A stretch of 23,516 nt of DNA, from IMG/VR virus record IMGVR_UViG_2585427772_000010; one strand, written 5' to 3'. The position numbers and the translations under genes are program-made. Below the pieces are notes generated by a model. That model worked only from the letters and a program-made list of their open reading frames with translations, was not told where the DNA came from and ran no database searches. Shown here piece by piece: positions 3,238 to 21,326 of the stretch (position 1 is its first letter; every line of letters begins with the position of its first letter). Source of the DNA: a virus (taxonomy: Duplodnaviria; Heunggongvirae; Uroviricota; Caudoviricetes).

Positions 3238-3509
3238 GTATTCGTATTGAAATTGGCGAACGTTATGTCGTTACCAGTGACAGCTTTCAGTTTATTCTCC
3301 ACGAGAAAAAGAGAGCGGAAAGCGGTAAAAACGCCGGTCAGGAATGGCTGGCGGTGGTTGGTTATTACCCGAAATTAAGCCAGCTCGTTTCCGGCCTGAT
3401 GCATCACGATATTCTGACCGGAAGCGCAAAGTCTTTTGCTGATTTAAACGGGCAGGTTGAGCAACTCAGCAAGCGTTGTTCAGAGGCTTTTGGCTCATAT
3501 GGCCGTTAA
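3234..3509 (+). CDS. Hypothetical early protein (P2 orf83 position)
   Basis: 91-aa ORF, start overlaps orf82 stop; 3' end overlaps the A start by 11 nt. Confidence 0.55.
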   Translation: MSIRIEIGERYVVTSDSFQFILHEKKRAESGKNAGQEWLAVVGYYPKLSQLVSGLMHHDILTGSAKSFADLNGQVEQLSKRCSEAFGSYGR

Positions 3510-5778
3510 AGCCTCCGGGCGTTTTGTCCCTCCGTCAGCATTTGCCGCAGGCACCGGTAAGACGTTTACCGGTGCTTATGCATGGAACGCGCCACGCGAG
3601 GCCGTCGGGCGCGAAAGACCCCTTACACGTGACGAGATGCGTCAGGTGCAAGGTGTTTTATCCACGATTAACCGCCTGCCTTACTTTTTGCGTTCGCTGT
3701 TTACTTCACGCTATGACTACATCCGGCGCAATAAAAGCCCGGTGCACGGGTTTTATTTCCTCACATCCACTTTTCAGCGTCGTTTATGGCCGCGCATTGA
3801 GCGCGTGAATCAGCGCCATGAAATGAACACCGACGCGTCGTTACTGTTTCTGGCAGAGCGTGACCACTATGCGCGCCTGCCGGGAATGAATGACAAGGAG
3901 CTGAAAAAATTTGCCGCCCGTATCTCATCGCAGCTTTTCATGATGTATGAGGAACTCTGCGATGCCTGGGTGGATGCCCATGGCGAAAAAGAATCGCTGT
4001 TTACGGATGAGGCGCAGGCTCACCTGTATGGTCATGTTGCTGGCGCTGCACGTGCTTTCAATATTTCCCCGCTCTACTGGAAAAAATACCGTAAAGGACA
4101 GATGACCACGAGGCAGGCATATTCTGCCATTGCCCGCCTGTTTAACGATGAGTGGTGGACTCATCAGCTTAAAGGCCAGCGTATGCGCTGGCATGAGGCG
4201 TTACTGATTGCTGTCGGGGAGGTCAATAAAGACCGTTCTCCTTATGCCAGTAAACATGCCATTCGTGATGTGCGTGCACGCCGCCAGGCAAATCTGGAAT
4301 TTCTTAAATCGTGTGACCTTGAAAACAGGGAAACCGGCGAGCGCATCGACCTTATCAGTAAGGTGATGGGCAGTATTTCTAATCCTGAAATTCGCCGGAT
4401 GGAGCTGATGAACACCATTGCCGGTATTGAGCGTTACGCCGCAGCAGAGGGTGATGTGGGGATGTTTATCACGCTGACCGCGCCGTCAAAGTATCACCCG
4501 ACACGTCAGGTCGGAAAAGGCGAAAGTAAAACCGTCCAGCTAAATCACGGCTGGAACGATGAGGCATTTAATCCAAAGGATGCGCAGCGTTATCTCTGCC
4601 ATATCTGGAGCCTGATGCGCACGGCATTCAAGGATAATGATTTACAGGTCTACGGTTTGCGTGTCGTCGAGCCACACCACGACGGAACGCCGCACTGGCA
4701 TATGATGCTTTTTTGTAATCCACGCCAGCGTAACCAGATTATTGAAATCATGCGTCGCTATGCGCTCAAAGAGGATGGCGACGAAAGAGGAGCCGCGCGA
4801 AACCGTTTTCAGGCAAAACACCTTAACCGGGGCGGTGCTGCGGGATATATCGCGAAATACATCTCAAAAAACATCGACGGCTATGCACTGGATGGTCAGC
4901 TCGATAATGATACCGGTAGGCCGCTGAAAGACACAGCTGCGGCTGTTACCGCATGGGCGTCAACGTGGCGCATTCCGCAATTTAAAACGGTTGGTCTGCC
5001 GACAATGGGGGCTTACCGTGAACTACGCAAATTGCCTCGCGGCGTCAGCATTGCTGATGAGTTTGACGAGCGCGTCGAGGCTGCACGCGCCGCTGCAGAC
5101 AGTGGTGATTTTGCGTTGTATATCAGCGCGCAGGGCGGGGCAAATGTCCCGCGCGATTGTCAGACTGTCAGGGTCGCCCGTAGCCCGTCGGATGACGTTA
5201 ACGAGTACGAGGAAGAAGTCGAGAGAGTGGTCGGCATTTACGCGCCGCATCTCGGCGCGCGTCATATTCATATCACCAGAACGACGGACTGGCGCATTGT
5301 TCCGAAAGTGCCGGTCGTTGAGCCTTTGACTTTAAAAAGCGGCATCGCCGCGCCTCGGAGTCCTGTCAATAACTGTGGAAAGCTCACCGGTGGTGATACT
5401 TCGTTACCGGCTCCCACACCTTCTGAGCACGCCGCAGCAGTGCTTAATCTGGTTGATGACGGTGTTATTGAATGGAATGACCAGGAGGTCGTGAGGGCGC
5501 TCAGGGGCGCATTAAAACGAGGTCTGAGAAGACCAAACCGTCAGCAAAGAAACGGAAGCCCGTTAAAACAGCATGAAATGGCACCATCGGCCAGACTGAC
5601 CCGGTCAGAACGAATGCAAATTACCCGTATCCGCGTTGACCTTGCTCAGAACGGTATCAGGCCGCAGCGATGGGAGCTTGAGGCGCTGGCGCGTGGAGCA
5701 ATTGTAAATTACGACGGGAAAAAATTCACGTATCCAGTCGCTGATGAGTGGCGGGGATTCTCAGCAGTAATGGAGTGA
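3499..5778 (+). CDS. A: Replication initiation protein A (rolling-circle HUH endonuclease)
   Basis: Long ORF; start placed at the internal ATG 3499 (MAVKASGRF...) by comparison with P2 A as I recall it; contains an HUH-like motif (PHWHMML) and a tyrosine pair (GYIAKYISK) expected for rolling-circle initiators. Confidence 0.9.
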   Translation: MAVKASGRFVPPSAFAAGTGKTFTGAYAWNAPREAVGRERPLTRDEMRQVQGVLSTINRLPYFLRSLFTSRYDYIRRNKSPVHGFYFLTSTFQRRLWPRIERVNQRHEMNTDASLLFLAERDHYARLPGMNDKELKKFAARISSQLFMMYEELCDAWVDAHGEKESLFTDEAQAHLYGHVAGAARAFNISPLYWKKYRKGQMTTRQAYSAIARLFNDEWWTHQLKGQRMRWHEALLIAVGEVNKDRSPYASKHAIRDVRARRQANLEFLKSCDLENRETGERIDLISKVMGSISNPEIRRMELMNTIAGIERYAAAEGDVGMFITLTAPSKYHPTRQVGKGESKTVQLNHGWNDEAFNPKDAQRYLCHIWSLMRTAFKDNDLQVYGLRVVEPHHDGTPHWHMMLFCNPRQRNQIIEIMRRYALKEDGDERGAARNRFQAKHLNRGGAAGYIAKYISKNIDGYALDGQLDNDTGRPLKDTAAAVTAWASTWRIPQFKTVGLPTMGAYRELRKLPRGVSIADEFDERVEAARAAADSGDFALYISAQGGANVPRDCQTVRVARSPSDDVNEYEEEVERVVGIYAPHLGARHIHITRTTDWRIVPKVPVVEPLTLKSGIAAPRSPVNNCGKLTGGDTSLPAPTPSEHAAAVLNLVDDGVIEWNDQEVVRALRGALKRGLRRPNRQQRNGSPLKQHEMAPSARLTRSERMQITRIRVDLAQNGIRPQRWELEALARGAIVNYDGKKFTYPVADEWRGFSAVME

Positions 5779-6107
5779 ACGTCGCCAGTTGCGAAAATTA
5801 TTTACAGGGGGCAGCGTTAAGCATCTAAAGATCTTGTTCTATGATTAGAATGTTTCCTCGTTGCACTCTCGTATAGTTATTTAATGGGAAGATGTACTCT
5901 ATATGTTGTGTTTTGGTGATAAATGAAGCCAAAGGAAGGAGATTTTGCTTGATTGATGGGCGCTCTTTGCTATACACCTTGTATTGAGAAGGAGAAGTAA
6001 TCAAGGATTAAGCTGGCTTTTGTCAAAAATCTGAAAAGCTTTTTTGACTGAATACGATAGCGAGTTGTACTATTTGCGCCCTCAAAAGTAACCGGCGGCT
6101 GGGTAAA

Positions 6108-6482
6108 ATGGGGAAGCAAGGCAAAGGCAAAGGCAACAAAAATCAGGTTAAGGTTACGTGGGCTCAGGCGTGGCGGGATGTAATGATAAGAGCCATGTCT
6201 AATGGTCAGTTGATACCTATTACCATCAGTATTATTTTAATGATTGCTGCATGGAGGTTACCAAAAACAGACTTGTCCAATTTAGCCTTCTCTATTGTTG
6301 ATGGCTTTAAGGAGCATTCCTTGGTTGGTTGGGCTATCTCGGTAATAGTGGGTTTGGCTTGGTCTGCACATGCGCGAATCATGAGGCGCTGTTTTAGTTC
6401 CGAGGCACAGAGAATCGGTAACGAGAAAACAAAGTATCAACAAAGACAGACCACTCAAGCCTTGGGTACAAGTGATAAATAG
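6108..6482 (+). CDS. Small membrane protein with two predicted TM helices (cargo gene 1)
   Basis: 124-aa ORF; lysine-rich N-terminus, hydrophobic segments LIPITISIILMIAAW and LVGWAISVIVGLAWSA; AT-rich; start uncertain (alternative ATGs at 6183 and 6195). Confidence 0.5.
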   Translation: MGKQGKGKGNKNQVKVTWAQAWRDVMIRAMSNGQLIPITISIILMIAAWRLPKTDLSNLAFSIVDGFKEHSLVGWAISVIVGLAWSAHARIMRRCFSSEAQRIGNEKTKYQQRQTTQALGTSDK

Positions 6483-6502
6483 TTGTTTATTTAGGAGTTA
6501 TT

Positions 6503-7060
6503 ATGCTGACAGTGCTGTTTTATGTGCTGTTGGGTTTAGGCGCAGCACACTTCATTTACGAGCGAATCATTTTGCCGTCCATCCGACTTCATTATAGAAA
6601 CCAATTGTTTGCGCTTCGTGATGTCGCTAGGAGGAAAATCATTGATGGAGGTTCCGATACTTCCATGCAAGCGGCAACACTTGTGCATGACTCATTGAAT
6701 AACGCTATCAATAGATTGCATTTACTCACGTTGCCAAACAAATTTCGTGCTCAAAAGCGTATGGCAGAAAACCATGCAATAAGGCAGAAAATTCGGCGTG
6801 AGATAGATGTTTTCAAACGCTGTGATGATAGAGAAGTTGTTGATGTACTGTTTAAATCCGGTCGGATACTTGAAAATGTACTGTTATTCAATAGCTTAAT
6901 GTTATTGCTTTACATGTTTCCATTTGTCCTTGCTGTATGGTTCTGTGTTAGGGTCATAAAGACAGCAAGTAGTTTAGTACAGTGGGTCAAAGGAAGAGAT
7001 TTAGAGGAAGCTATAATGCTGCTTCCTGATACTCAGGTTGAAAAGGTTGTATACGCATAA
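6503..7060 (+). CDS. Membrane protein with N- and C-terminal hydrophobic helices (cargo gene 2)
   Basis: 185-aa ORF; AGGAG 6 nt upstream of the ATG; 20-nt gap from gene 1 (operon); hydrophobic N-terminus (LTVLFYVLLGLGAAHFIY) and C-proximal helix (LLFNSLMLLLYMFPFVLAVWFCV); followed by a terminator. Confidence 0.65.
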   Translation: MLTVLFYVLLGLGAAHFIYERIILPSIRLHYRNQLFALRDVARRKIIDGGSDTSMQAATLVHDSLNNAINRLHLLTLPNKFRAQKRMAENHAIRQKIRREIDVFKRCDDREVVDVLFKSGRILENVLLFNSLMLLLYMFPFVLAVWFCVRVIKTASSLVQWVKGRDLEEAIMLLPDTQVEKVVYA

Positions 7061-7089
7061 AAATCACCCCTTAGGGGGTGATTTTTTTA
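7061..7089 (+). terminator. Rho-independent terminator
   Basis: ATCACCCC-TTAG-GGGGTGAT hairpin followed by a 7-T run immediately after the 6503-7060 stop. Confidence 0.7.
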
Positions 7090-7299
7090 CATGACTTTTG
7101 ATTAGCTGACATTGTAAATCCGCATGTATCAGATGCATTGTTTTGCATGTGGAAATGGGTGTTTTCACTGCCAGCTATCGCTACATGTAGCAAAAACACG
7201 GGCTTAATAAGAAATCATTCTGCCATAAGGCATAACTTCCCCGCGTGCTCAGGTATTGACGTCATAGATATGGATCTTTTTTAATCAAGGTATGGTATT

Positions 7300-8247
7300 A
7301 TGAAGATATTTATTAGTTGGTCAGGTCAGGACAGCCTGGAGATAGCAAAAGTATTACGGGATTGGATACCGAATGTTATTCAAGTAGCTGAGCCGTACGT
7401 ATCAGCGGAAGATATTGATAAAGGCACTCGCTGGGCGACTGATATATCAAAGGAACTTGATGACTCTTCTTATGGGATTATTTGCCTTACAAAAAATAAT
7501 ATTAATGCACCGTGGATAAATTTTGAGGCGGGGGCTTTAGGTAAAAAGGTTGATAAGAGCCGGGTTAGTCCTTTCTTGTTTAAAATTAAACCATCTGAGA
7601 TAACAGGCCCAATATTACAATTCCAGTATACTCGTTCGGATGATAAGAACGATATTTTGAAGTTGATGTTGTCAATAAATAATCAAGCAGGATTTTTGAC
7701 TGAAGAACGCTTAACTAAAGCTTTCGAGCAATGGTGGCCAAGTTTAGAGCGTGAGTTAGATAACATTCAAGATATTAACCCTGTAGATAAAGATTCCACT
7801 AAAAAAACAAAAGGTGATTCGACTTCTGAGATACAAAATCTTTCCAAAATTGTTGAAAGTTTGCTGGATATTAGCCGAACAAATCACCAATTATTGCGTG
7901 ATCCAGCATCATTATTGCCAGAAGAATATGTTAGCAAAATAATAAACAGGGAAGGGCGTAAAGAAACTGTTTTAAAAATTGTAGCTTCTGATTTATTATC
8001 CATGCATCATTCACTAATTCGTGTAAAAAGAAGATTTATTCGTCGTGGTATTGATGAAACATCTAGGAGCGAGTTAATTGAATCATTAAATAAAATGATA
8101 ATGGATTGTTCTAGAGTAATCGCTCACTTAGATAATTATTGTGGGGCTTCATCAAACAATATGTTCAATAGTGCGCTTAGATTGCGGACCAGAAATTTAA
8201 TTGACATGATGGATGAGGAGGATGCAGAACGGGATGAAATGGAATAA
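7300..8247 (+). CDS. TIR-like domain protein with uncharacterised helical C-terminal half (cargo gene 3)
   Basis: 315-aa ORF; N-terminal ~130 aa carries the bacterial TIR-like pattern (KIFISWSGQD ... GIICLTKNN ... PWINFEAG) with a glutamate at the position of the catalytic Glu of TIR NADases; C-terminal ~170 aa is charged/helical and unrecognised. The domain call is from motif reading only. Confidence 0.6.
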   Translation: MKIFISWSGQDSLEIAKVLRDWIPNVIQVAEPYVSAEDIDKGTRWATDISKELDDSSYGIICLTKNNINAPWINFEAGALGKKVDKSRVSPFLFKIKPSEITGPILQFQYTRSDDKNDILKLMLSINNQAGFLTEERLTKAFEQWWPSLERELDNIQDINPVDKDSTKKTKGDSTSEIQNLSKIVESLLDISRTNHQLLRDPASLLPEEYVSKIINREGRKETVLKIVASDLLSMHHSLIRVKRRFIRRGIDETSRSELIESLNKMIMDCSRVIAHLDNYCGASSNNMFNSALRLRTRNLIDMMDEEDAERDEME

Positions 8248-8791
8248 TCAATTTTGACTAATCATAAATAATTTTGCATATATAAACTTATAATGCCGCA
8301 GCCGCTATTTTTCAGCGGCTGTATATCGCTTATAATGGGTATGTTATTTTTATTTTGATAAAATCATTAAAATTGTCGATGTTATATGAATGCACATGTA
8401 TTATTAATGTTAGAAGATTATGCCTGCTTACGGCTATTGTGCTGAATTCAACTATGAACGCATCAGTATTAAAATCGTTCCATGAAATGTTCTTCGTCTA
8501 CAGCAGATGATGGGCAACGAAAAAATGACGCTGAGTGAGTTGGTCGGGGAGAATTGTTAGAGGTATTTATGGAGTGGTTTAATAATATCGGTCAATCCTG
8601 AGTTGCAGCATCACATAGACGATAGGGAATCTCTCCAGTCGTTCTGGAATGGCAGCGTTGAACAACAAGCACAGCGAGGCGTTAGATGCCCATCAGATTG
8701 ACACAGAGGGTTTATGAATCGCTGGGATTTACTTAGTTTGAAAAATAATATATTTATATGTTTTTGTATTGTGTTTGTTAAGGAGTTTGGA

Positions 8792-8998
8792 TTGAAAAGA
8801 AAACTGATTTGTGTTATGGCTTTTTGGGGGGCGTTGCTGGCTGGTTGTAATGAGAGTAATAAAAAAGAAGTTGAGGGTTGTATTGAAAGAGGTGTCCAAT
8901 ATTTTATAGAGATTGGTTCTTACCCTAAATTAAGTGATGGGCGTGATGCTGTAAAAGTTGCTACTGAACGTTGTAATAGAACAATAACGGCTTTCTGA
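8792..8998 (+). CDS. Small predicted lipoprotein (cargo gene 4)
   Basis: Track ORF 8714-8998; preferred start is the in-frame TTG at 8792, preceded by AAGGAG (8780-8785), giving a classical lipoprotein signal peptide (KRK, hydrophobic core, lipobox LLAG-C); about 49-aa mature protein with three further Cys. Confidence 0.5.
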   Translation: MKRKLICVMAFWGALLAGCNESNKKEVEGCIERGVQYFIEIGSYPKLSDGRDAVKVATERCNRTITAF

Positions 8999-9000
8999 TA

Positions 9001-9918
9001 ATGGATTATACGAGCTATATAATAGGACAGCTTCAGGTTGAGGATATTATTGATGCAATTAAAGGCGTTAATAATACTAATGTCATAAAAGATTATGTGC
9101 TGCCTGTAGTATTACCAATTATATCTTCTGTGCTGAGTTACTTTATTGCAACTAGGTTGTTTTATCGGCAGGAGGACCTTAAAGCACAAAGAAGAAAGGT
9201 AAGCGTTGTAAATAAATGTATTTATGACTACTTTTCTGCAATGACAACGTTGTTGCAAATTAAAGGGAATTATTATGGTGGGGTAAGTATAAGTGAAAAT
9301 CCTATCGAGAGGGCTTTAGCTTTTCCTGTTGTGGTTTTTTCTGGTGCTCCTCTATCATCAGATTTAAGTGAGTTGGCCTGTATATTGAGTCAAAAGGGAG
9401 TAGGGAATAATAGAGAGCCAGCAAAGACTACTAACTGGGGGGATGCTTTTGCTGTTAGTGATATAGCAAGAAGGTTTAACAGCCTATTGGCTGCATTAAA
9501 TGTTAGGAATGATTTTGATGACACCTATAGAGGAATGATTATTGAATCAACAGGTTCACCTTTGCCTACGATGCGTTTTAAAAATGATGATATTGTTAAT
9601 GCTATAGGTAGTAATAAGGCAGCTTATTACATTGATATTACTGAGCAAATAATGATTATGATAGATGTTTTGTTGCTTGATATTAATCTGTTGCTCAAAG
9701 AGTTGCCATTGTATGCTGAATCGCTGTTTGACAAAAGAGTAATGCAAGAAGATTCAGGGATTCTTAAATTCAATGATTTGCACGAACGTTTTCCTCTACT
9801 TATGAAACCTGTAACGCCACCTTCGATTAAACTCATGTCTGATTATTTGGGGTACAGTGAAGATGAGATCTTACGACGCTATCCATACCCGTTCTTTAAT
9901 ATGCATGATTGTGAATGA
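9001..9918 (+). CDS. Uncharacterised 305-aa protein with one N-proximal TM helix (cargo gene 5)
   Basis: ATG 2 nt after the lipoprotein stop (coupled); hydrophobic segment VLPVVLPIISSVLSYFIATRLF; AT-rich; no family recognised. Confidence 0.7.
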   Translation: MDYTSYIIGQLQVEDIIDAIKGVNNTNVIKDYVLPVVLPIISSVLSYFIATRLFYRQEDLKAQRRKVSVVNKCIYDYFSAMTTLLQIKGNYYGGVSISENPIERALAFPVVVFSGAPLSSDLSELACILSQKGVGNNREPAKTTNWGDAFAVSDIARRFNSLLAALNVRNDFDDTYRGMIIESTGSPLPTMRFKNDDIVNAIGSNKAAYYIDITEQIMIMIDVLLLDINLLLKELPLYAESLFDKRVMQEDSGILKFNDLHERFPLLMKPVTPPSIKLMSDYLGYSEDEILRRYPYPFFNMHDCE

Positions 9919-10021
9919 ATGTGCATATGTCAGAAGCCGTTTTTATTGTCAGTTATCGTCAGTGCTGGCGCGCTCTTGGAGTGTTCATGCAACTGCATTA
10001 AAACCGCCCCACGAAGCGGGC

Positions 10022-10040
10022 GGGCGAGGCGGGGAAAGCA
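10022..10040. other. cos site (19-nt cohesive-end sequence of P2-type phages)
   Basis: Exact GGCGAGGCGGGGAAAGCAC, which I recall as the P2/P4 cohesive end, in the expected position between the old/tin locus and Q. Confidence 0.6.
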
Positions 10041-10198: not shown

Positions 10199-11233
10199 TC
10201 AGCCGTTGTCAGTGTCCAGTGAGTAGTTTTTAAAGCGGATGACCTCCTGACCGAGCCAGCCGTTTATTTCCCGAATCCTGTCCTGTAACGGGATAAGTTC
10301 ATTGCGGACAAAGACCTTTGCCACTTTCTCAATATCGCCCAGCGACCCGACGTTTTCCGGCTTGCCACCCATCAACTGAAAGGGGATGCGGTGCGCGTCC
10401 AGCAGGTCAGCGGCGCTGGCTTTTTTGATATTAAAAAAATCGTCCTTCGTGGCCACTTCACTGAGCGGGATAATTTTAATGCCGTCGGCTTTTCCCTGTG
10501 GGGCATAGAGAAACAGGTTTTTAAAGTTATTGCGGCCTTTCGACTTCACCATGTTTTCGCGGAGCATTTCGATATCGTTGCGATCCTGCACGGCATCAGT
10601 GACGTACATGATGTATCCGGCATGTGCGCCGTTTTCGTAATACTTGCGGCGGAACAGCGTGGCCGACTCATTCAGCCAGGCAGAGTTAAGGGCGCTGAGA
10701 TATTCCGGCAGACCGTACAGCTCCTGATTAATATCCGGCTCCAGCAGGTGAAACACGGAGCCGGGCGCGAAAGGTGTCGGCTCGTTGAAGGACGGCACCC
10801 ACCAGTAAACATCCTCCTCCACGCCACGGCGGGGATATTTTGCCGGGGAGGGTTCCAGTCTGATGACCTTACCGGTGGTGCTGTAACGCTTTTCCAGAAA
10901 CGCATTACCGAATACCAGAAAATCCAGCACAAAGCGGCTGAAATCCTGCTGAGAAAGCCACGGGTGTGGGATAAACGTTGAGGCCAGAATGTTACGTTTG
11001 ACGTAAATCGGTGAGCTGTGATGCACGGCAGCACGCAGGCTTTTTGCCAGACCGGTAAAGCTGACTGGTGGCTCATACCATCTGCCGTTACTGATGCACT
11101 CGACGTAATCCAGAATGTCACGGCGGTCGAGTACCGGCACCGGCTCACCAAAGGTGAATGCCTCCATTTTCGGGGCGCTGGCGGTCATTTTTTTTGCCGC
11201 AGGTTGCGGTGTTTTCCCTTTTTTCTTGCTCAT
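10199..11233 (-). CDS. Q: Portal protein Q
   Basis: 344-aa ORF, same length and position as P2 Q; start ATG overlaps the P stop (TGATG). Confidence 0.9.
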   Translation of the reverse strand: MSKKKGKTPQPAAKKMTASAPKMEAFTFGEPVPVLDRRDILDYVECISNGRWYEPPVSFTGLAKSLRAAVHHSSPIYVKRNILASTFIPHPWLSQQDFSRFVLDFLVFGNAFLEKRYSTTGKVIRLEPSPAKYPRRGVEEDVYWWVPSFNEPTPFAPGSVFHLLEPDINQELYGLPEYLSALNSAWLNESATLFRRKYYENGAHAGYIMYVTDAVQDRNDIEMLRENMVKSKGRNNFKNLFLYAPQGKADGIKIIPLSEVATKDDFFNIKKASAADLLDAHRIPFQLMGGKPENVGSLGDIEKVAKVFVRNELIPLQDRIREINGWLGQEVIRFKNYSLDTDNG

Positions 11234-11795
11234 CAGTAAAACTCCAGAATGGTGGATGTCAGCGGGGTGCTGATACCGGCGGTGAGTGGCTCATTTAACA
11301 GGGCGTGCATGGTCGCCCAGGCGAGGTCGGCGTGGCTGGCTTCCTCGCTACGGCTGGCCTCATAGGTGGCGCTGCGTCCGCTGCTGGTCATGGTCTTGCG
11401 GATAGCCATGAACGAGCTGGTGATGTCGGTGGCGCTGCGTCCGCTGCTGGTCATGGTCTTGCGGATAGCCATGAACGAGCTGGTGATGTCGGTGGCGCTG
11501 ACGTCATATTCCAGACAGCCACGGCGGATGACGTCTTTTGCCTTGAGCACCATTGCGGTTTTCATTTCCGGCGTGTAGCGGATATCGCGTGCGGCGGGAT
11601 AGAACGAGCGCACGAGCTGGAACACGCCGACACCGAGGCCGGTGGCATCAATTCCGATGTATTCGACGTTGTATTTTTCGGTGAGTTTGCGGATGGATTC
11701 CGCCTGAGTGGCAAAGTCCATGCCTTTCCACTGGTGACGCTCAAGTATTCTGAATTTACCTCCGGCCACCACCGGCGGTGCCAGCACCACGCATC
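11233..11795 (-). pseudogene. P: Terminase large subunit P, C-terminal fragment only, carrying an in-frame 63-bp tandem duplication
   Basis: Only ~185 codons remain of a gene that is ~590 codons in P2; the reading frame runs into the K fragment on the other strand; the upstream promoter and N-terminal part are absent. Confidence 0.8.
11368..11493. repeat. Perfect 63-bp tandem duplication (2 copies) inside the P remnant
   Basis: 11368-11430 and 11431-11493 are identical; the 10-mer GGTGGCGCTG precedes each copy and a partial third GGCGCTG follows; encodes a duplicated 21-aa segment (SATDITSSFMAIRKTMTSSGR). Confidence 0.9.
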
Positions 11796-11797
11796 CG

Positions 11798-12250
11798 GCG
11801 CTGGCCGTGTCCGAAGGGACGGCGAATCATCCGCTGACGAAAAACCGGGGCTATGACGTGATAGTCACCGGACTGGACGGAAAGCCGGAAATTTTCACCG
11901 ACTACAGTGACCACCCGTTCGCACATGGTCGACCGGCGAAGGTGTTTAACCGTCGCGGTGAAAAATCCACGGCCTCCGGTCGCTATCAGCAGCTTTACCT
12001 GTTCTGGCCGCATTACCGCAAACAGCTTGCCCTGCCGGATTTCAGTCCGTTGTCACAGGACAGGCTCGCCATTCAGTTGATCCGCGAACGCGGTGCACTG
12101 GATGACATCCGGGCGGGACGCATTGAGCGCGCCATTTCACGCTGTCGCAATATCTGGGCGTCCCTGCCGGGTGCCGGTTACGGTCAGCGTGAGCATCCAC
12201 TGGAAAAACTGGTCACCGTCTGGCGTACCGCCGGCGGCGTACCGGCTTAA
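11798..12250 (+). pseudogene. K: Endolysin K (lambda R-like lytic transglycosylase), 5'-truncated
   Basis: Translation (SEGTANHPLTKNRGYDVIV ... IWASLPGAGYGQ) aligns with lambda R from about its residue 17 onward; the catalytic-Glu motif SEGT is retained but the N-terminus, RBS and upstream holin gene are missing. Confidence 0.75.
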
Positions 12251-12264
12251 ACGGAGTAAACACC

Positions 12265-12690
12265 ATGAAGAAATTATCCCTTTCACTGATGCTGAATGTG
12301 CCGCTGGCGCTGATGCTGGCACTGTCCCTGATTTACCCGCAGAGCGTGGCCGTCAGTTTTGTCGCCGCCTGGGCGATTCTGGCGACGGTTATCTGTGTGG
12401 TTGCCGGTGGTGTCGGCGTGTATGCCACTGAGTATGTGCTGGAACGCTACGGGCGGGAGCTGCCGCCGGAATCGCTGGCCGTGAAGATTGTCACGTCGCT
12501 GTTTTTGCAGCCGGTGCCGTGGCGCAGACGGGCAGTAGCTCTGGTGGTGATGGTGGCGACGTTTATCTCGCTGGTCGCTGCCGGGTGGATTTTTACCGCG
12601 CTGATTTATCTTGTGGCGTCGCTGTTTTTCCGGCTGATACGTAAAGCCTGCCGTCAGCGTTTTGAGGGGCGGGAACCATGTCAAAGCTGA
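12265..12690 (+). CDS. lysA: LysA (membrane protein of the P2 lysis cassette)
   Basis: 141-aa strongly hydrophobic multi-TM protein directly after K, as in P2. Confidence 0.8.
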   Translation: MKKLSLSLMLNVPLALMLALSLIYPQSVAVSFVAAWAILATVICVVAGGVGVYATEYVLERYGRELPPESLAVKIVTSLFLQPVPWRRRAVALVVMVATFISLVAAGWIFTALIYLVASLFFRLIRKACRQRFEGREPCQS

Positions 12691-13103
12691 TGATTGTGCT
12701 GGTTGTGCTGTTATCGCTGGCGGTGGCGGGGCTGTTTCTGGTGAAGCATGAAAACGCCAGCCTGCGCGCCTCGCTGGACAGGGCGAACAACGTCGCCAGT
12801 GAACAGCAGACGACCATCACCATGCTGCAAAATCAGCTTCATGTTGCCATCACCAGGGCAGACAAAAACGAGCTGGCGCAGGTGGCACTGCGTCAGGAAC
12901 TGGAGAACGCCGCGAAGCGTGAAGCACAGCGCGAGAAAACCATCACGAGGTTACTTAATGAAAACGAAGATTTTCGCCGCTGGTATGGCGCTGACCTGCC
13001 TGATGCTGTGCGCCGGTTGCACCAGCGCCCCGCCTGCACCGACGCCAGTGATTGTCGCCAACGCCTGCCCGAAAGTGAGCCTTTGCCCGATGCCGGGCAG
13101 TGA
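12678..13103 (+). CDS. lysB: LysB, Rz-like inner-membrane spanin
   Basis: 141-aa ORF with N-terminal TM helix followed by coiled-coil-like region; overlaps lysA stop. Confidence 0.8.
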   Translation: MSKLMIVLVVLLSLAVAGLFLVKHENASLRASLDRANNVASEQQTTITMLQNQLHVAITRADKNELAQVALRQELENAAKREAQREKTITRLLNENEDFRRWYGADLPDAVRRLHQRPACTDASDCRQRLPESEPLPDAGQ

Positions 13104-13248
13104 CCCGGAGACGAACGGCGATTTAAGTGCCGATATCCGGCAGCTTGAGAACGCGCTGGCACGTTGTGCCAGCCAGGTAAAAATGATTAAACACTGTCAG
13201 GACGAAAACGATGCTCAAACCCGACAGCCTGCGCAGGGCGCTGACTGA
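12958..13248 (+). CDS. lysC: LysC, Rz1-like outer-membrane lipoprotein spanin, embedded in +1 frame of lysB
   Basis: Internal ATG at 12958 of track ORF 12748-13248 gives MKTKIFAAGMALTCLMLCAGC... with lipobox LCAG-C and a proline-rich mature region; starts inside lysB and extends beyond it. Confidence 0.7.
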   Translation: MKTKIFAAGMALTCLMLCAGCTSAPPAPTPVIVANACPKVSLCPMPGSDPETNGDLSADIRQLENALARCASQVKMIKHCQDENDAQTRQPAQGAD

Positions 13249-13678
13249 TGCCGTCACGGTGCTGAAAACTAACCCCGATATGCTGCGGATATTCGTGGAT
13301 AACGGGAGTATTGCCTCCACACTGGCGGCGTCGTTGTCATTCGAAAAGCGTTACACGCTCAATGTCATTGTGACCGACTTTACCGGTGATTTTGACCTGC
13401 TCATCGTGCCGGTGCTGGCGTGGCTGCGGGAAAATCAGCCCGACATCATGACCACCGACGAAGGCCAGAAAAAGGGCTTCACGTTTTATGCAGACATCAA
13501 CAATGACAGCAGCTTTGATATCAGTATCAGCCTGATGCTGACCGAGCGCACGCTGGTCAGTGAGGTTGACGGTGCGCTGCATGTGAAGAATATCCCGGAA
13601 CCTCCGCCGCCGGAGCCAGTCAATCGCCCGATGGAGCTTTATATCAATGGTGAACTGGTGAGCAAGTGGGATGAATGA
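13211..13678 (+). CDS. R: Tail completion protein R
   Basis: 155-aa ORF, same length and position as P2 R. Confidence 0.85.
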   Translation: MLKPDSLRRALTDAVTVLKTNPDMLRIFVDNGSIASTLAASLSFEKRYTLNVIVTDFTGDFDLLIVPVLAWLRENQPDIMTTDEGQKKGFTFYADINNDSSFDISISLMLTERTLVSEVDGALHVKNIPEPPPPEPVNRPMELYINGELVSKWDE

Positions 13679-14123
13679 GTTTAAGCGTTTTGAAGACCGA
13701 CTGACCGGACTGATTGAATCGCTGTCACCGTCTGGGCGTCGGCGACTGAGTGCAGAACTGGCGAAACGTCTGCGGCAGAGTCAGCAGCGTCGGGTGATGG
13801 CACAGAAAGCTCCGGACGGCACACCCTACGCACCACGCCAGCAGCAGAGCGCCAGAAAAAAGACCGGTCGCGTTAAGCGAAAAATGTTTGCGAAACTTAT
13901 CACCAGTCGTTTTTTGCATATCCGCGCCAGCCCTGAACAGGCATCAATGGAGTTTTACGGCGGGAAGTCACCGAAAATCGCCAGTGTGCATCAGTTCGGT
14001 CTGTCGGAAGAAACCCGGAAAGACGGTAAGAAAATTGATTATCCGGCGCGTCCTCTGCTCGGCTTTACCGGTGAGGATGTGCAGATGATTGAAGAGATTA
14101 TCCTGGCTCACCTTGAGCGTTAG
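13671..14123 (+). CDS. S: Tail completion protein S
   Basis: 150-aa ORF overlapping the R stop, same length and position as P2 S. Confidence 0.85.
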   Translation: MNEFKRFEDRLTGLIESLSPSGRRRLSAELAKRLRQSQQRRVMAQKAPDGTPYAPRQQQSARKKTGRVKRKMFAKLITSRFLHIRASPEQASMEFYGGKSPKIASVHQFGLSEETRKDGKKIDYPARPLLGFTGEDVQMIEEIILAHLER

Positions 14124-14194
14124 TTTTATCCAGACAGAGGCTGATGCGCAATTAAACATTGAGCGGCCATGCTGGTCGCTCAATGTTTAGAGGT

Positions 14195-14980
14195 TTATGA
14201 GTGATTTTTATTTGATGCTTTGTATTCTAAAACCTTCTTATTGGCGTAAAAGAATTTTGTATATGACAGGAATATAACCAGACCTGAAGTGAAATAGACG
14301 AGGGATAGTATTAATAATGCTTTTTTGCGACTGTTATTATCTTTAATCTCCAGGCTTAACCATTCGGAGTCCTCCTCGTTTAGCTGTAAGAGCTTATTGC
14401 AGGCGATTTCAGGAAGTGTGTCTTTTATAAATACGTTTTGCAGTCTCTTGCAATCGGCAAGGCTATAAGTTTTATTAAATTCAACTGCTTTATTTTTGAA
14501 GGATAAAAGAACTTTGTCACTATAAACATAGTACATCATGTTTTTATATGGTATGCCTATGGCATCCCTTACTATAACGGATTGTTCGTTGTGTATGTAA
14601 CATGCGAGGAGAATGTAAAAAATACTGGCCAGAATTACAATTATTGTTTTAATTATGTGTGGTGGTTTTGTTATGTCACCCCAGATGCGAGTAAGGAAAA
14701 AATACGATGTTTTTAGTTTTCCATCAATCAGTCCCTGCTGTATCATTCTCACATTTTCAATGCCTGATACATTGATTCCGTTAATTATTTTAAATAGTTG
14801 AATGTCGCGCCACTCGCGGTCAAGTCTTTTTAATTTTTTGTCTGAATATCCAAAATTGAAATAATGTGCAATAAGCCTCATAAGGTTACTTTTACCAAAG
14901 CTAAAAAATGCTAATACTGCAAAGCTACAAAGGAAAAAAACGATTAGCCCCCACACATTAGTCACATTATAGCTGACCAT
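14195..14980 (-). CDS. AT-rich multi-pass membrane protein at the orf30 position, antisense to the late genes
   Basis: 261-aa ORF; AAGGAGAG 5 nt upstream of the ATG on the minus strand; about three hydrophobic helices; composition visibly more AT-rich than flanking S and V. Confidence 0.7.
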   Translation of the reverse strand: MVSYNVTNVWGLIVFFLCSFAVLAFFSFGKSNLMRLIAHYFNFGYSDKKLKRLDREWRDIQLFKIINGINVSGIENVRMIQQGLIDGKLKTSYFFLTRIWGDITKPPHIIKTIIVILASIFYILLACYIHNEQSVIVRDAIGIPYKNMMYYVYSDKVLLSFKNKAVEFNKTYSLADCKRLQNVFIKDTLPEIACNKLLQLNEEDSEWLSLEIKDNNSRKKALLILSLVYFTSGLVIFLSYTKFFYANKKVLEYKASNKNHS

Positions 14981-14989
14981 TACGCTCTC

Positions 14990-15060
14990 CTTGAATGTTG
15001 TCTGGTAGTTCTACAAATGAATCCAGATAGCATAACTTTTATATATTGTGCAATCTCACA
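14990..15060 (+). promoter_or_regulatory. Candidate late promoter upstream of V (P_V)
   Basis: Imperfect dyad TTGTCTGGTAGTTCTACAA about 50-60 bp upstream of V and an AT-rich -10-like TATATAT; P2 has an Ogr-dependent late promoter at this position. Spacing does not exactly match the TGT-N12-ACA consensus as I recall it. Confidence 0.3.
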
Positions 15061-15063
15061 TGC

Positions 15064-15699
15064 ATGAACACTCTCGCAAATATTCAGGAACTCGCGCGCG
15101 CACTGCGCAACATGATTCGCACCGGCATTATCGTCGAAACCGACCTTAACGCCGGTCGCTGCCGCGTGCAGACCGGCGGCATGTGCACCGACTGGCTTCA
15201 GTGGCTGACCCATCGCGCCGGTCGTTCGCGCACATGGTGGGCACCTTCCGTGGGGGAACAGGTGCTGATTCTGTCCGTGGGCGGTGAACTCGACACGGCG
15301 TTTGTTCTGCCGGGGATTTATTCCGGCGATAATCCCGCGCCGTCTGCGTCGGCGGATGCCCTGCATATCCGTTTCCCTGACGGGGCGGTGATTGAGTATG
15401 AACCCGAAACCAGTGCGCTCACGGTAAGCGGAATTAAAACGGCCAGCGTGACGGCTTCCGGTTCTGTTACTGCCACTGTGCCGGTGGTCATGGTGAAAGC
15501 GTCAACCCGCATCACCCTGGACACACCGGAGGTGGTCTGCACCAACAGGCTGATTACCGGCACGCTGGAAGTGCAGAAGGGCGGGACGATGCGCGGCAAC
15601 ATTGAACACACCGGCGGTGAACTCTCATCAAACGGTAAGGTACTGCATACCCATAAACACCCCGGCGACAGCGGCGGCACAACCGGGAGTCCTCTATGA
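15064..15699 (+). CDS. V: Baseplate spike/assembly protein V
   Basis: Start at internal ATG 15064 (MNTLANIQ...) of track ORF 15046-15699; 211 aa, as in P2 V. Confidence 0.85.
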   Translation: MNTLANIQELARALRNMIRTGIIVETDLNAGRCRVQTGGMCTDWLQWLTHRAGRSRTWWAPSVGEQVLILSVGGELDTAFVLPGIYSGDNPAPSASADALHIRFPDGAVIEYEPETSALTVSGIKTASVTASGSVTATVPVVMVKASTRITLDTPEVVCTNRLITGTLEVQKGGTMRGNIEHTGGELSSNGKVLHTHKHPGDSGGTTGSPL

Positions 15700-16043
15700 C
15701 AGCGCGTTATCTCGGAATGAATCGCAGTGATGGCCTGACGGTCACTGACCTTGAGCATATCAGCCAGAGTATCGGCGATATCCTGCGCACACCGGTCGGC
15801 TCACGGGTGATGCGCCGTGATTACGGCTCGTTGCTGGCGTCAATGATTGACCAGCCGCAGACCCCGGCGCTTGAGTTGCAGATTAAGGTCGCCTGTTACA
15901 TGGCGGTGCTGAAATGGGAACCCCGCGTCACCCTGTCATCCGTCACCACGGCGCGCAGTTTTGACGGGCGAATGACGGTCACGTTAACCGGTCAGCACAA
16001 CGACACCGGTCAGCCACTTTCGTTAACCATCCCTGTGAGTTGA
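15696..16043 (+). CDS. W: Baseplate protein W (gp25-like)
   Basis: 115-aa ORF overlapping the V stop, same length and position as P2 W. Confidence 0.85.
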   Translation: MTARYLGMNRSDGLTVTDLEHISQSIGDILRTPVGSRVMRRDYGSLLASMIDQPQTPALELQIKVACYMAVLKWEPRVTLSSVTTARSFDGRMTVTLTGQHNDTGQPLSLTIPVS

Positions 16044-16047
16044 AACC

Positions 16048-16956
16048 ATGCCGATTATCGACCTGAACCAGCTACCCGCACCGGATGTGGTCGAGGAGCT
16101 GGACTTTGAAACCATTCTTGCCGAACGCAAGGCGACACTGATTTCCCTTTACCCGGAAGACCAGCAGGAGGTGGTCGCCCGTACCCTGACGCTGGAATCG
16201 GAGCCTCTCGTCAAACTGCTGGAAGAAAATGCTTATCGTGAGCTTATCTGGCGTCAGCGTGTGAATGAGGCCGCACGGGCGGTGATGCTGGCCTGTGCCG
16301 CCGGTAATGACCTTGATGTGATTGGTGCCAATTACAACACCACACGCCTGATTATCATCCCGGCAGATGATTCGACCATCCCGCCGACACCGGCAGTGAT
16401 GGAATCTGACACCGATTATCGTCTGCGTATTCAGCAGGCGTTTGAAGGTTTAAGCGTTGCCGGGTCGGTGGGAGCCTATCAGTATCATGGTCGCAGTGCC
16501 GACGGGCGTGTCGCGGATATCTCTGTCACCAGTCCGTCTCCGGCCTGTGTCACTATCTCCGTGCTGTCCCGAGAAAATAACGGTGTCGCATCCGAAGACC
16601 TGCTGGCTGTGGTGCGTAACGCTCTTAATGGCGAGGACGTCAGGCCGGTGGCTGACCGTGTGACCGTGCAGTCTGCCGCCATTGTTGAATACCAGATAAA
16701 CGCCACGCTGTATCTTTACCCTGGTCCAGAAAGCGAACCCATCCGCGCCGCCGCCGTGAAAAAACTGGAAGCGTACATCACGGCACAGCACCGGCTGGGG
16801 CGCGACATCCGTCTGTCTGCCATTTATGCCGCTTTGCATGTGGAAGGCGTGCAGCGTGTCGAACTGACTGCACCGCTGGCTGACATCGTGCTCAACAGTA
16901 CGCAGGCGTCTTTCTGCACCGAATACAGCGTCGTGACCGGAGGCTCGGATGAGTGA
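16048..16956 (+). CDS. J: Baseplate protein J
   Basis: 302-aa ORF, same length and position as P2 J. Confidence 0.9.
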   Translation: MPIIDLNQLPAPDVVEELDFETILAERKATLISLYPEDQQEVVARTLTLESEPLVKLLEENAYRELIWRQRVNEAARAVMLACAAGNDLDVIGANYNTTRLIIIPADDSTIPPTPAVMESDTDYRLRIQQAFEGLSVAGSVGAYQYHGRSADGRVADISVTSPSPACVTISVLSRENNGVASEDLLAVVRNALNGEDVRPVADRVTVQSAAIVEYQINATLYLYPGPESEPIRAAAVKKLEAYITAQHRLGRDIRLSAIYAALHVEGVQRVELTAPLADIVLNSTQASFCTEYSVVTGGSDE

Positions 16957-20287: not shown

Positions 20288-20881
20288 ATGTTTACTAAGC
20301 GACGATTAAAAAATATTAACTGGGAGGCAAGTTCAGTGATTCTTGCTATGGTTCTCTTTGTTGGAAATATATTTTATACAAATCATCGTGATGATATAAG
20401 CATGGAGGCTGAGAGGGACAGTATCAGAACAATGTTTGCATATGAAATCGCTAATAACCATCGCGCTCTCACTTTTCTTGATAAAACGAGACATATTGGC
20501 TTTGACGAAAATTCGGAGCATTTTGTTGGCGAGCCTTTTGCCATTAATGTCAAATCATTAGGGGGACCTCGCTTACAGATTGCATTAAACCAGACTGATA
20601 AAGTGTTTAAATCCTACTTCGGCGAATTAAGTAAGCTTGATAAAGAGGATGTTACTCTTCTTATGGACTATTACCATGAGCAAAGCATCCTGCTGGAGCG
20701 TGTAAAATCTACGTTACAGAAGATGAAAAGTGGTAATGATATTAAAGTTGATATTGATGGTTGCTTATTAGAAGAACACTTCATGAATGAGCTTAATCTT
20801 TCTAATATTTTGCTTAAACGCTATAGCTATTTATTATCACAACACGCTAAGGAACATAAAACAAAAGATTTACATAATTGA
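20288..20881 (+). CDS. AT-rich membrane-anchored protein at the Z/fun position
   Basis: 197-aa ORF; AAGGTG 5 nt upstream of the ATG; single N-terminal TM helix (SSVILAMVLFVGNIFY); flanked by AT-rich intergenic DNA between G and the FI remnant. Confidence 0.65.
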   Translation: MFTKRRLKNINWEASSVILAMVLFVGNIFYTNHRDDISMEAERDSIRTMFAYEIANNHRALTFLDKTRHIGFDENSEHFVGEPFAINVKSLGGPRLQIALNQTDKVFKSYFGELSKLDKEDVTLLMDYYHEQSILLERVKSTLQKMKSGNDIKVDIDGCLLEEHFMNELNLSNILLKRYSYLLSQHAKEHKTKDLHN

Positions 20882-21212: not shown

Positions 21213-21326
21213 ATGAGTGACTATCATCACGGCGTGCAGGTGCTGGAGATTAACGACGGCACCCGCGTCATTTCCACCGTATCCACAGCCATTGTCGGCA
21301 TGGTCTGCACGGCTAGCCTCCCGTAA
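21213..21326 (+). pseudogene. FI: Tail sheath FI, 5' stub (37 codons then stop)
   Basis: [35 protein letters not shown] matches the start of the P2 sheath protein as I recall it, then leaves frame and hits TAA at 21324-21326. Confidence 0.7.

What the first reader, a model, noticed from the sequence alone, without database searches (positions are those of the whole stretch)
7700..8247. The TIR-like protein carries an unrecognised ~170-aa helical C-terminal half
Only the first ~130 residues look TIR-like. The remainder (from about DKDSTKKTKGDS... to the acidic tail DEEDAERDEME) is charged and helical with no motif I recognise. In single-protein and multi-protein TIR systems the non-TIR domain is usually the sensor or oligomerisation module, so this half may define specificity.
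Basis: inference. Interest (0 to 1): 0.5.

Follow-up and report, generated by a model that had tools for sequence, protein, structure and literature searches.

The report
Helical tail of known phage TIR protein
The flagged stretch is the helical C-terminal part of the TIR protein from a published, experimentally validated anti-phage cassette of phage P2_AC1; the tail matches no known domain, has a strictly conserved first helix followed by a fast-evolving helical hairpin, and most likely regulates or assembles the TIR enzyme.

Summary
The ORF 7300-8247 (315 aa) is real. It lies in the gpA-portal hotspot of a P2-like prophage that is 99.6% identical to phage P2_AC1. That is the phage in which the three-gene "2TM-1TM-TIR" defence cassette was validated (Rousset 2022). 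PADLOC and PHROG models cover the protein end to end, so it is catalogued, but its C-terminal half has never been characterised.

Anatomy of the protein:
- TIR fold, residues 1-155 (not ~130), with an invariant WxxxE motif.
- Disordered linker, 156-175.
- Helix A, 176-211, almost as conserved as the TIR.
- Amphipathic helical hairpin, 212-284.
- Loose acidic tail, 285-315.

No Pfam, NCBIfam, PDB or viral-fold match exists for the C-half. A profile of it finds only this same architecture among 1.84 billion proteins.

The hairpin evolves fast: dN/dS is 0.83 against 0.06 for the TIR. Across the family it is replaced by unrelated tails.

The TIR gene and the 2TM-1TM pair each occur alone in other P2-like hotspots, and a strong terminator separates them here.

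Best reading: a self-contained TIR NADase whose C-half gates or assembles it. The locus is already known, and interest is moderate.

The parts
7300..8247 (+). ORF of the TIR + helical-tail protein (315 aa + stop). It is the TIR component of the published AC1 '2TM-1TM-TIR' cassette.
   Evidence: ORF list. PADLOC PDLC03016 E 2e-118 over residues 1-295. 99.6% DNA identity to phage P2_AC1. Annotated there as P2AC1_00002.
7300..7764 (+). TIR domain, residues 1-155, including the last helix 135-154 and the invariant WWP at 145-147.
7513..7527 (+). W72-I-N-F-E76, the WxxxE motif holding the putative catalytic glutamate of TIR NADases.
   Evidence: W72 and E76 are invariant in 44 relatives. They align with the W...E of AbTIR, though the E-value is weak.
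7765..7824 (+). Linker, residues 156-175: charged, unconserved, predicted disordered.
   Evidence: pLDDT <50 at 163-173. Conservation 0.7 bits. Length from the end of the TIR match to the conserved helix-A motif varies from 16 to 28 residues.
7825..7932 (+). Helix A, residues 176-211. The conserved core 184-211 reads IVESLLDISRTNHQLLRDPASLLPEEYV (family motif ILEExLELSRxNHxLLRxPExLLPxDY).
   Evidence: E186, L189, R193 and L199 are invariant; N195, R200, P202, P207 and Y210 are >=90% conserved. Conservation 2.3-4.1 bits. dN/dS 0.08. pLDDT 84-94 in the C-half model.
7933..8151 (+). Fast-evolving amphipathic helical hairpin, residues 212-284 (helices 217-249 and 253-284).
   Evidence: AF2. About 1 bit conservation. 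dN/dS 0.83 against the closest relative, at the same dS as the TIR. Hydrophobic stripes with 100-105 degree periodicity. Core positions keep hydrophobic character in 73% of cases.
8152..8244 (+). C-terminal tail, residues 285-315: a disordered stretch, then a low-confidence helix ending in the acidic run DEEDAERDEME.
   Evidence: pLDDT 45-54. Conservation 0.5 bits and occupancy 0.40. Net charge -5.
6108..6482 (+). '2TM' protein gene (124 aa), the upstream neighbour in the published cassette.
   Evidence: PADLOC PDLC02978 E 2e-58. 62% identical to a lambdoid-prophage gene that has no TIR neighbour.
6503..7060 (+). '1TM' protein gene (185 aa).
   Evidence: PADLOC PDLC02977 E 3e-75. The family has only 49 clusters, almost all from Enterobacterales. 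It occurs with the 2TM gene but without a TIR gene in four P2-like hotspots and one lambdoid prophage.
7062..7088 (+). Intrinsic terminator directly after the 1TM stop codon (AAAAUCACCCC-UUAG-GGGGUGAUUUUUUU).
   Evidence: dG -17.8 kcal/mol, z -5.0, 0 of 200 shuffles fold as well. It lies inside the 2TM-1TM DNA homology block, which ends at 7088.
7089..7276 (+). Junction between the two mobile modules, with no homology to either kind of single-module locus.
   Evidence: blastn breakpoints: the 2TM-1TM block is window 6018-7088 (vs L095); the TIR block starts at window 7277 (vs L088, L082).

Best explanation
Residues 176-315 are a family-specific helical extension of a self-contained TIR NADase. 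It has two parts. Helix A (184-211) is conserved and is tied to the TIR by a floppy linker. The amphipathic hairpin (212-284) is fast-evolving and packs with helix A into a small bundle.

Proposed mechanism: the bundle holds the protein in a defined, probably dimeric or oligomeric, inactive state. A phage-derived cue acting on the variable hairpin surface lets the TIR domains assemble. The WxxxE active site then destroys NAD+ and aborts the infection.

Shown here: the domain anatomy, the conservation pattern, the evolutionary rates, the lack of any known domain, the stand-alone occurrence of the gene, and the intact catalytic motif.

Inferred: oligomerisation, autoinhibition, trigger binding and NAD+ depletion.

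Corollary: the published three-gene cassette is probably two juxtaposed modules (2TM+1TM, and TIR) rather than an obligate signalling pathway.
For: Locus and family:
- The locus is the validated AC1 cassette.
- TIR fold plus invariant W72/E76.

The C-half:
- It models as three long helices with pLDDT 74-95.
- Hydrophobic stripes are conserved in 89 relatives, with 100-105 degree periodicity.
- No known domain or fold matches. Fold hits are generic helical hairpins, including histidine-kinase DHp dimerisation hairpins. There are 6/31 weak HisKA hits.
- A profile of the C-half against 1.84e9 proteins gives 209 hits. All are the same TIR architecture or N-terminally cut fragments of it.

Conservation and rates:
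- TIR 3.0 bits, helix A 2.3-4.1 bits, hairpin about 1 bit.
- dN/dS is 0.06, 0.08 and 0.83 respectively, at equal dS.
- The core 1-210 is fully cross-detectable at a median 54% identity. The tails fall into 58 BLAST components.
- The two largest tail classes are unrelated by hhalign (probability 0.7%).

Gene context:
- The gene stands alone in E. coli and Klebsiella P2-like hotspots, a Serratia chromosome, Klebsiella small plasmids and a Providencia defence island.
- No conserved neighbour exists in 79 loci from distinct species.
- A terminator and DNA homology breakpoints separate the gene from 2TM-1TM.
Against: - No experiment or multimer model was available, so oligomerisation and trigger binding are unproven.
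- dN/dS of 0.83 is below 1. It fits relaxed constraint on a plain structural coiled coil as well as diversifying selection.
- The AF2 models are only moderate (pTM 0.46-0.47), and no coordinates or PAE could be inspected. Whether helix A packs on the hairpin, on the TIR, or on another subunit is unknown.
- The only functional data (Rousset 2022) come from all three genes cloned together, so a role for the TM proteins cannot be excluded.
- The hairpin diverged specifically in the AC1 lineage, the one with TM neighbours. The two stand-alone relatives (L099, L088) share 74% hairpin identity with each other, but AC1 shares only 48% and 40% with them. AC1 also lost the consensus KPhxYh motif. This could reflect adaptation to those neighbours.
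Confidence: 0.45

Rival explanations
1. Thoeris-like signalling, the hypothesis of the original paper. The TIR protein senses infection through its C-half and makes a nucleotide messenger from NAD+. The messenger opens or activates the 2TM and 1TM membrane proteins, which kill the cell.
For: - The three genes are adjacent and co-oriented, and were validated together as one clone.
- The TIR has the WxxxE motif.
- The AC1-lineage hairpin diverged from the stand-alone alleles.
- 13 of 33 co-oriented upstream neighbours of distant relatives have a hydrophobic segment.
Against: - The TIR gene is the sole cargo in two other P2-like hotspots and stands alone elsewhere.
- The 2TM-1TM pair occurs without any TIR gene in four P2-like hotspots and a lambdoid prophage.
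- A strong terminator follows the 1TM gene, and DNA homology breaks between the modules.
- The 1TM family has 49 clusters, almost all Enterobacterales. The TIR family has more than 1500 clusters across many phyla.
- No neighbour family recurs in 79 loci.
- The TM proteins have no recognisable ligand-binding domain.
Confidence: 0.2
2. Purely structural coiled coil. The C-half only provides constitutive dimerisation or tetramerisation, as DHp hairpins and the coiled-coil regions of other bacterial TIR proteins do. Infection is sensed elsewhere, for example by the TIR itself or through NAD+/metabolite state. The fast evolution of the hairpin is neutral drift of a surface under little constraint.
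For: - Heptad-like stripes are retained while surface residues drift.
- dN/dS is below 1.
- Fold hits are generic hairpins and DHp domains.
- Tails are replaceable by unrelated helical tails.
Against: - Helix A carries invariant polar residues (E186, R193, N195, R200) across phyla. A generic coiled coil would not need them.
- A stand-alone defence or toxic enzyme needs some gate, and no other domain is present.
- The two stand-alone hotspot alleles keep their hairpin under clear purifying selection (dN/dS 0.27), so the surface is not free to drift everywhere.
Confidence: 0.25
3. Partner-docking domain. In AC1 the hairpin and acidic tail tether the TIR enzyme to the cytoplasmic parts of the 1TM/2TM proteins, so activity is localised or gated at the membrane.
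For: - Lineage-specific divergence of the AC1 hairpin and loss of the KPhxYh motif.
- The 1TM protein has a long soluble helical segment between its hydrophobic ends.
Against: - Module separability and the terminator argue against it, as for the signalling rival.
- The acidic tail is also present in the stand-alone relatives L099 and L088.
- The TIR protein has no hydrophobic segment (maximum Kyte-Doolittle score 1.04).
Confidence: 0.1

Closest known systems
Rst_2TM_1TM_TIR (DefenseFinder) / PADLOC 2TM-TIR, 1TM-TIR and TIR-TM; the phage P2_AC1 hotspot system of Rousset et al. 2022 (PMC9122126)
   Same: This is the same locus. DNA identity to P2_AC1 over the hotspot is 99.6%. All three PADLOC models hit at E 2e-58 to 2e-118. 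The position between gpA and the portal gene is the same.
   Different: Nothing differs at the sequence level. What is added here:
- The TIR model covers a broad stand-alone family.
- The C-half has a conserved helix plus a variable hairpin.
- The TIR gene and the TM pair are separable modules. The paper cloned them together without dissecting them.
Coiled-coil-containing bacterial TIR NADases (AbTir type)
   Different: By my recollection of that literature, which I did not check here, the helical region in those proteins lies N-terminal to the TIR. Here it is C-terminal, behind a disordered linker. There is no detectable sequence relationship outside the TIR.
Thoeris (ThsB TIR sensor/synthase plus ThsA effector)
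   Same: A TIR protein in an anti-phage context. The original authors proposed a Thoeris-like messenger model.
   Different: - No ThsB_TIR (PF08937) or PADLOC Thoeris hit.
- No ThsA-like effector is present.
- Relatives have no conserved partner gene.
Histidine-kinase DHp (HisKA) dimerisation hairpin
   Different: Foldseek E-values are all above 0.8. Only 6 of 31 C-halves give weak HisKA hits (best E 0.074), and the window protein gives none. The resemblance is to a generic fold, not family membership.

Membership tests
Rst_2TM_1TM_TIR / PADLOC 2TM-1TM-TIR system | Three adjacent co-oriented genes matching the 2TM, 1TM and TIR models | tested here: met
   PDLC02978 at 2e-58, PDLC02977 at 3e-75 and PDLC03016 at 2e-118, for ORFs 6108-6482, 6503-7060 and 7300-8247.
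Rst_2TM_1TM_TIR / PADLOC 2TM-1TM-TIR system | Identity with the experimentally validated locus of phage P2_AC1, in the gpA-portal hotspot | tested here: met
   99.6% identity over window 6000-10022 to OV192280.1. gpA and the portal gene flank it. The defence phenotype is taken from PMC9122126.
Rst_2TM_1TM_TIR / PADLOC 2TM-1TM-TIR system | The three genes work as one system (mutual dependence) | not testable with these tools
   Comparative data argue against obligate dependence. TIR-only and 2TM-1TM-only hotspots exist, a terminator lies between the modules, and DNA homology breaks there. No genetic dissection has been published.
TIR-domain NADase | TIR (flavodoxin-like) fold | tested here: met
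TIR-domain NADase | Catalytic glutamate in a WxxxE context | tested here: met
   W72 and E76 are invariant in 44 relatives. They align to the W...E of AbTIR, but the pairwise E-value is weak (0.65-1.4).
TIR-domain NADase | NAD+ cleavage activity | not testable with these tools
   Requires an enzyme assay or NAD+ measurement during infection.
Thoeris | ThsB-type TIR together with a ThsA-type effector (SIR2/SLOG or Macro/TM) | tested here: not met
   No ThsB_TIR or Thoeris model hit in Pfam or PADLOC. The neighbours have no SLOG, Macro or SIR2 domain.
HisKA / DHp domain | Significant match to the HisKA profile, including the phospho-acceptor His box | tested here: not met
   The window C-half has 0 Pfam hits. 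Among 31 relatives, 6 give weak hits with best E 0.074. Foldseek E-values are above 0.8.
Transmembrane TIR protein (as the PADLOC label 'TIR-TM' might suggest) | A membrane-spanning helix in the TIR protein | tested here: not met
   The maximum 19-residue Kyte-Doolittle mean is 1.04, with no window above 1.6.

The most novel reading that the evidence does not exclude
The family is a widespread single-gene immune receptor-effector built on a constant chassis (TIR plus helix A). Its C-terminal helical tails are exchangeable and fast-evolving, with at least two unrelated classes and dozens of orphan types, and they directly recognise phage proteins. On this reading the published '2TM-1TM-TIR' system is really two independent defence modules that happen to sit side by side in phage AC1.
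Probability: 0.3. Interest if true: 0.6.

Novelty: already known. Interest (0 to 1): 0.35.

Why it matters
The gene itself is not new. It is the TIR component of a system validated in this very phage and already present in defence-finding databases.

Three things remain open. No function is known for its C-terminal half. The system has never been dissected. Detection tools require all three genes, so they miss relatives that stand alone, and such relatives turned up repeatedly on plasmids, prophages and islands from many phyla.

If the TIR protein works alone, with its variable helical tail as the gate or sensor, a rare three-gene curiosity becomes a common single-gene defence family. It would have a simple, swappable specificity element, and truncation and hairpin-swap constructs could test it directly.

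Tried and rejected
Searches that found nothing for the C-half:
- Sequence searches: Pfam, NCBIfam, and PDB by both profile and single sequence. Only de novo designed helical proteins and KIN17 appeared, at E >= 0.006.
- The AFDB50 library was not available.

Ideas tested and rejected:
- The C-half as a module shared with other effector domains. All 146 listed hits that were checked, among the best 150 of 209, are the same TIR architecture or truncated fragments of it.
- A transmembrane helix in the TIR protein, as the PADLOC label 'TIR-TM' might suggest. None is present.
- A conserved partner gene. phmmer with the 2TM, 1TM, ORF94 and ORF305 proteins against ORFs of 80 loci found nothing. All-vs-all BLAST of adjacent ORFs gave no recurring family.
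- The hairpin as an imported, recombinant segment. dS is the same as in the TIR.
- Remote homology between the two main tail classes. hhalign probability is 0.7%.

Other negatives:
- The literature held no dissection or structure of this system. Only catalogue mentions were found.
- The consensus promoter scan found no convincing + strand promoter in the 7089-7299 junction, and it also missed the terminator at 7062-7088.

Full report
**What is at the coordinates**

Window 7700-8247 is the 3' part (residues 134-315) of a 315-aa ORF at 7300-8247 on the + strand. The ORF lies in a low-GC islet (34-40% GC against 52-58% around it). The islet sits between a P2-type replication gene (gpA, 3457-5778; Pfam Phage_GPA E 1.6e-124) and the portal gene (10199-11233, minus strand). 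This is the cos-proximal 'hotspot' of P2-like phages described by Rousset et al. 2022 (PMC9122126).

The three + strand ORFs 6108-6482, 6503-7060 and 7300-8247 hit the PADLOC models 2TM-TIR (2e-58), 1TM-TIR (3e-75) and TIR-TM (2e-118). The last model covers residues 1-295 of the protein.

The hotspot DNA (window 6000-10022) is 99.6% identical to Escherichia phage P2_AC1 (annotation). That is the phage from which this three-gene cassette was cloned and shown to protect against lambda, LF82_P8 and P2. The gene is therefore already published and catalogued (Rst_2TM_1TM_TIR). I found no paper that dissects the cassette or describes the C-terminal half.

**Checking the observation**

The non-TIR part is helical and charged, and it matches no named domain. 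Pfam sees only TIR_2 at residues 3-113. NCBIfam sees nothing. A family profile against all PDB sequences finds only designed helical proteins for the C-half. Pfam scans of 31 isolated C-halves give nothing significant.

Three corrections are needed:
- The quoted 'DKDSTKKTKGDS' segment is a disordered linker that varies in length. pLDDT is below 50 at 163-173, conservation is 0.7 bits, and the stretch from the end of the TIR match to the conserved helix-A motif spans 16-28 residues across relatives.
- The whole length is covered by PADLOC PDLC03016 and by phrog_13899. It is 'uncharacterised' rather than 'unrecognised'.

**Anatomy of the C-half**

A model of residues 172-315 alone (31-sequence alignment; mean pLDDT 78) gives helices at protein residues 174-200, 208-248 and 253-281. 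A low-confidence helix follows at 291-314.

Across 191 relatives filtered at 80% identity, the information content per segment is:

| Segment | Residues | Bits per column |
|---|---|---|
| TIR | 1-155 | 3.0 |
| Linker | 156-175 | 0.7 |
| Helix A core | 184-211 | 2.3-4.1 |
| Hairpin | 212-284 | about 1.0 |
| Tail | 285-315 | 0.5 |

In helix A, E186, L189, R193 and L199 are invariant. N195, R200, P202, P207 and Y210 are at least 90% conserved.

In the hairpin, the identities drift but the hydrophobic stripes are kept in 89 relatives. Their periodicity is 100-105 degrees per residue, as in amphipathic bundle or coiled-coil helices. Between the window protein and its closest relative, 73% of core positions stay hydrophobic. 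The protein has no membrane-spanning segment, despite the PADLOC label 'TIR-TM'.

**Is the C-half a known or shared domain?**

No.
- Foldseek of the C-half model finds nothing below E 0.8 in the PDB and nothing below E 0.4 among viral models. The hits are generic hairpins, coiled coils and histidine-kinase DHp hairpins.
- A profile of the C-half searched against 1.84 billion representative proteins finds only 209 proteins at E <= 0.001. Every listed one that I checked is either the same TIR-plus-tail architecture or a fragment cut inside or just after the TIR.

The module is thus private to this TIR clade. It is not a cassette shared with other effectors.

**Constant chassis, variable tail**

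Residues 1-210 of all 191 relatives detect one another by BLAST, at a median 54% identity. The relatives come from many phyla: Proteobacteria, Bacteroidota, Firmicutes, Planctomycetota, Acidobacteriota and a Methanosarcina.

The tails after residue 210 fall into 58 BLAST components:
- one component of 92 sequences, which includes the window protein;
- one of 39 sequences with a tail of about 140 aa;
- about 54 singletons.

The two large classes are unrelated even by profile-profile comparison (hhalign probability 0.7%). The second class also has no Pfam domain.

Codon comparison against the closest non-identical relative (E. coli L099, 78% identity) gives:

| Segment | dN/dS | Amino-acid identity |
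|---|---|---|
| TIR | 0.06 | 94% |
| Helix A | 0.08 | 96% |
| Hairpin | 0.83 | 48% |

dS is the same in all three segments (0.49, 0.41 and 0.52). The hairpin therefore changed fast in place and was not imported.

The two stand-alone alleles L099 and L088 keep their hairpins at dN/dS 0.27 and 74% identity. The acceleration is thus specific to the AC1 lineage. That lineage also replaced the family's second small motif, KPhxYh, with SRVIAHL.

**Context: the TIR gene and the TM pair are separable**

The TIR gene occurs without TM partners in many settings:
- The closest relatives (78% and 74% identity) are the only gene between gpA and the portal gene in an E. coli and a Klebsiella P2-like prophage.
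- A Serratia relative lies between two regulator genes, with no small TM ORF nearby.
- A Klebsiella relative lies on small mobilisable plasmids behind the replicase gene.
- A Providencia relative lies in an island beside a type I restriction gene.
- Another relative lies at a prophage edge.
- In 79 loci from different species, no neighbouring gene family recurs.

The 2TM-1TM pair likewise occurs without any TIR gene:
- in four P2-like hotspots;
- in a lambdoid prophage, between the lysis and terminase genes.

The 1TM family has only 49 clusters, almost all from Enterobacterales.

At the DNA level, the 2TM-1TM block is window 6018-7088 and the TIR block starts at 7277. Positions 7089-7276 match neither kind of locus. 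A strong intrinsic terminator (7062-7088; dG -17.8, z -5.0) closes the 2TM-1TM unit. All stand-alone relatives hit the PADLOC TIR model as strongly as the AC1 protein does. The complete three-gene cassette is present in only 14 of 5426 complete E. coli genomes, all at >=99% identity.

**Most likely mechanism**

I read the protein as a self-contained TIR NADase. W72 and E76 form the WxxxE catalytic motif; they are invariant and align to the same residues of AbTIR.

Because relatives usually stand alone, the C-half is the only available regulatory element. Helix A is conserved with invariant polar residues. It probably makes a fixed contact, either with the TIR or with a second subunit. The variable hairpin packs with it into a small bundle. 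That bundle would set the oligomeric state and present a changeable surface.

A phage cue at that surface would release or assemble the TIR domains, and NAD+ loss would abort infection.

The anatomy, conservation, rates, privacy of the module and stand-alone context are shown here. Oligomerisation, gating, trigger binding and NAD+ depletion are inferred. I put this at about 0.45.

**Rivals**

- Thoeris-like messenger model of the original paper (0.2). The separability data, the terminator and the lack of a recurrent partner weaken it. It cannot be excluded, because only the three-gene clone was tested.
- Plain structural coiled coil with neutral surface drift (0.25). It fits the sub-1 dN/dS, but it does not explain the invariant polar face of helix A.
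- Docking domain for the TM proteins (0.1). It fits the AC1-specific hairpin divergence, but little else.

**Comparison with what is known, and novelty**

The locus is the type example of Rst_2TM_1TM_TIR, so it is already known.
- It is not Thoeris. There is no ThsB model hit and no ThsA-type effector.
- It is not a HisKA/DHp member.
- It resembles coiled-coil TIR NADases of the AbTir type only in principle. As I recall that family, its helical part lies on the other side of the TIR.

What is new here is descriptive: the two-part nature of the C-half, its privacy to this TIR clade, the constant-chassis/variable-tail pattern, and the evidence that the 'three-gene system' is probably two modules. 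This is moderately interesting and directly testable, but it would not surprise a specialist.

Noticed in passing
window 8714-8998 and 9001-9918 (+): A third cargo pair lies in the same hotspot: a 94-aa ORF whose stop codon directly abuts the start codon of a 305-aa ORF with two hydrophobic segments. It hits only PHROG families of unknown function (phrog_32041, phrog_21267), with no Pfam, PADLOC or NCBIfam match. Only the 305-aa gene is annotated in P2_AC1. The pair occurs without the TIR cassette in E. coli MS 16-3 (hit H15). It was apparently not among the 'three genes' cloned in the 2022 paper.
   Followed up: partly
window ~11428-11803 and ~21314-21317 (junctions): Compared with phage P2_AC1, the window lacks two blocks of about 5.3-5.4 kb. 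One is AC1 26317-31631, which holds most of the large terminase and the head genes. The other is AC1 11367-16800, which holds tail genes. ORF 11233-11790 is only the Terminase_6C end. The first junction is not contiguous in any of 5426 complete E. coli genomes. The prophage is therefore defective, or the window is spliced.
   Followed up: partly
window 14195-14980 (-) and 20288-20881 (+): Two low-GC ORFs (261 aa and 197 aa) sit among the tail genes, in local GC dips to about 37%. The first is transcribed against its neighbours. Neither has a Pfam or PADLOC hit. They may be further accessory (moron) genes.
   Followed up: partly
L014, L027, L029, L031, L034, L059 and others (gene starts near 5001 in most of these loci): A second class of relatives (about 343 aa; Bacteroides, Phocaeicola, Clostridia, gamma-proteobacteria) keeps the TIR and helix A. 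It lacks the LLPxDY end of the motif. It carries an unrelated helical tail of about 140 aa (FPWIYDAG...HPMMREM) with no Pfam match.
   Followed up: partly
L090 and L091, 3102-4939: On small Klebsiella mobilisable plasmids, the TIR-tail gene starts on the stop codon of the replicase gene (overlap at 4001-4004). It is very common: the protein is indexed in 365 blocks of the collection.
   Followed up: no
L104 227-2699: A 59%-identical relative lies on a Rop-type plasmid-like contig, next to a SLATT-domain gene and a separate ThsB-type TIR gene. This places two different TIR genes side by side.
   Followed up: no
window 8298-8322 (+): A stable hairpin (9 bp stem, dG -15.9, z -3.1) lies 50 nt after the TIR stop codon, without a T-run. 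It may be a weak terminator or a processing site for the TIR transcript.
   Followed up: no
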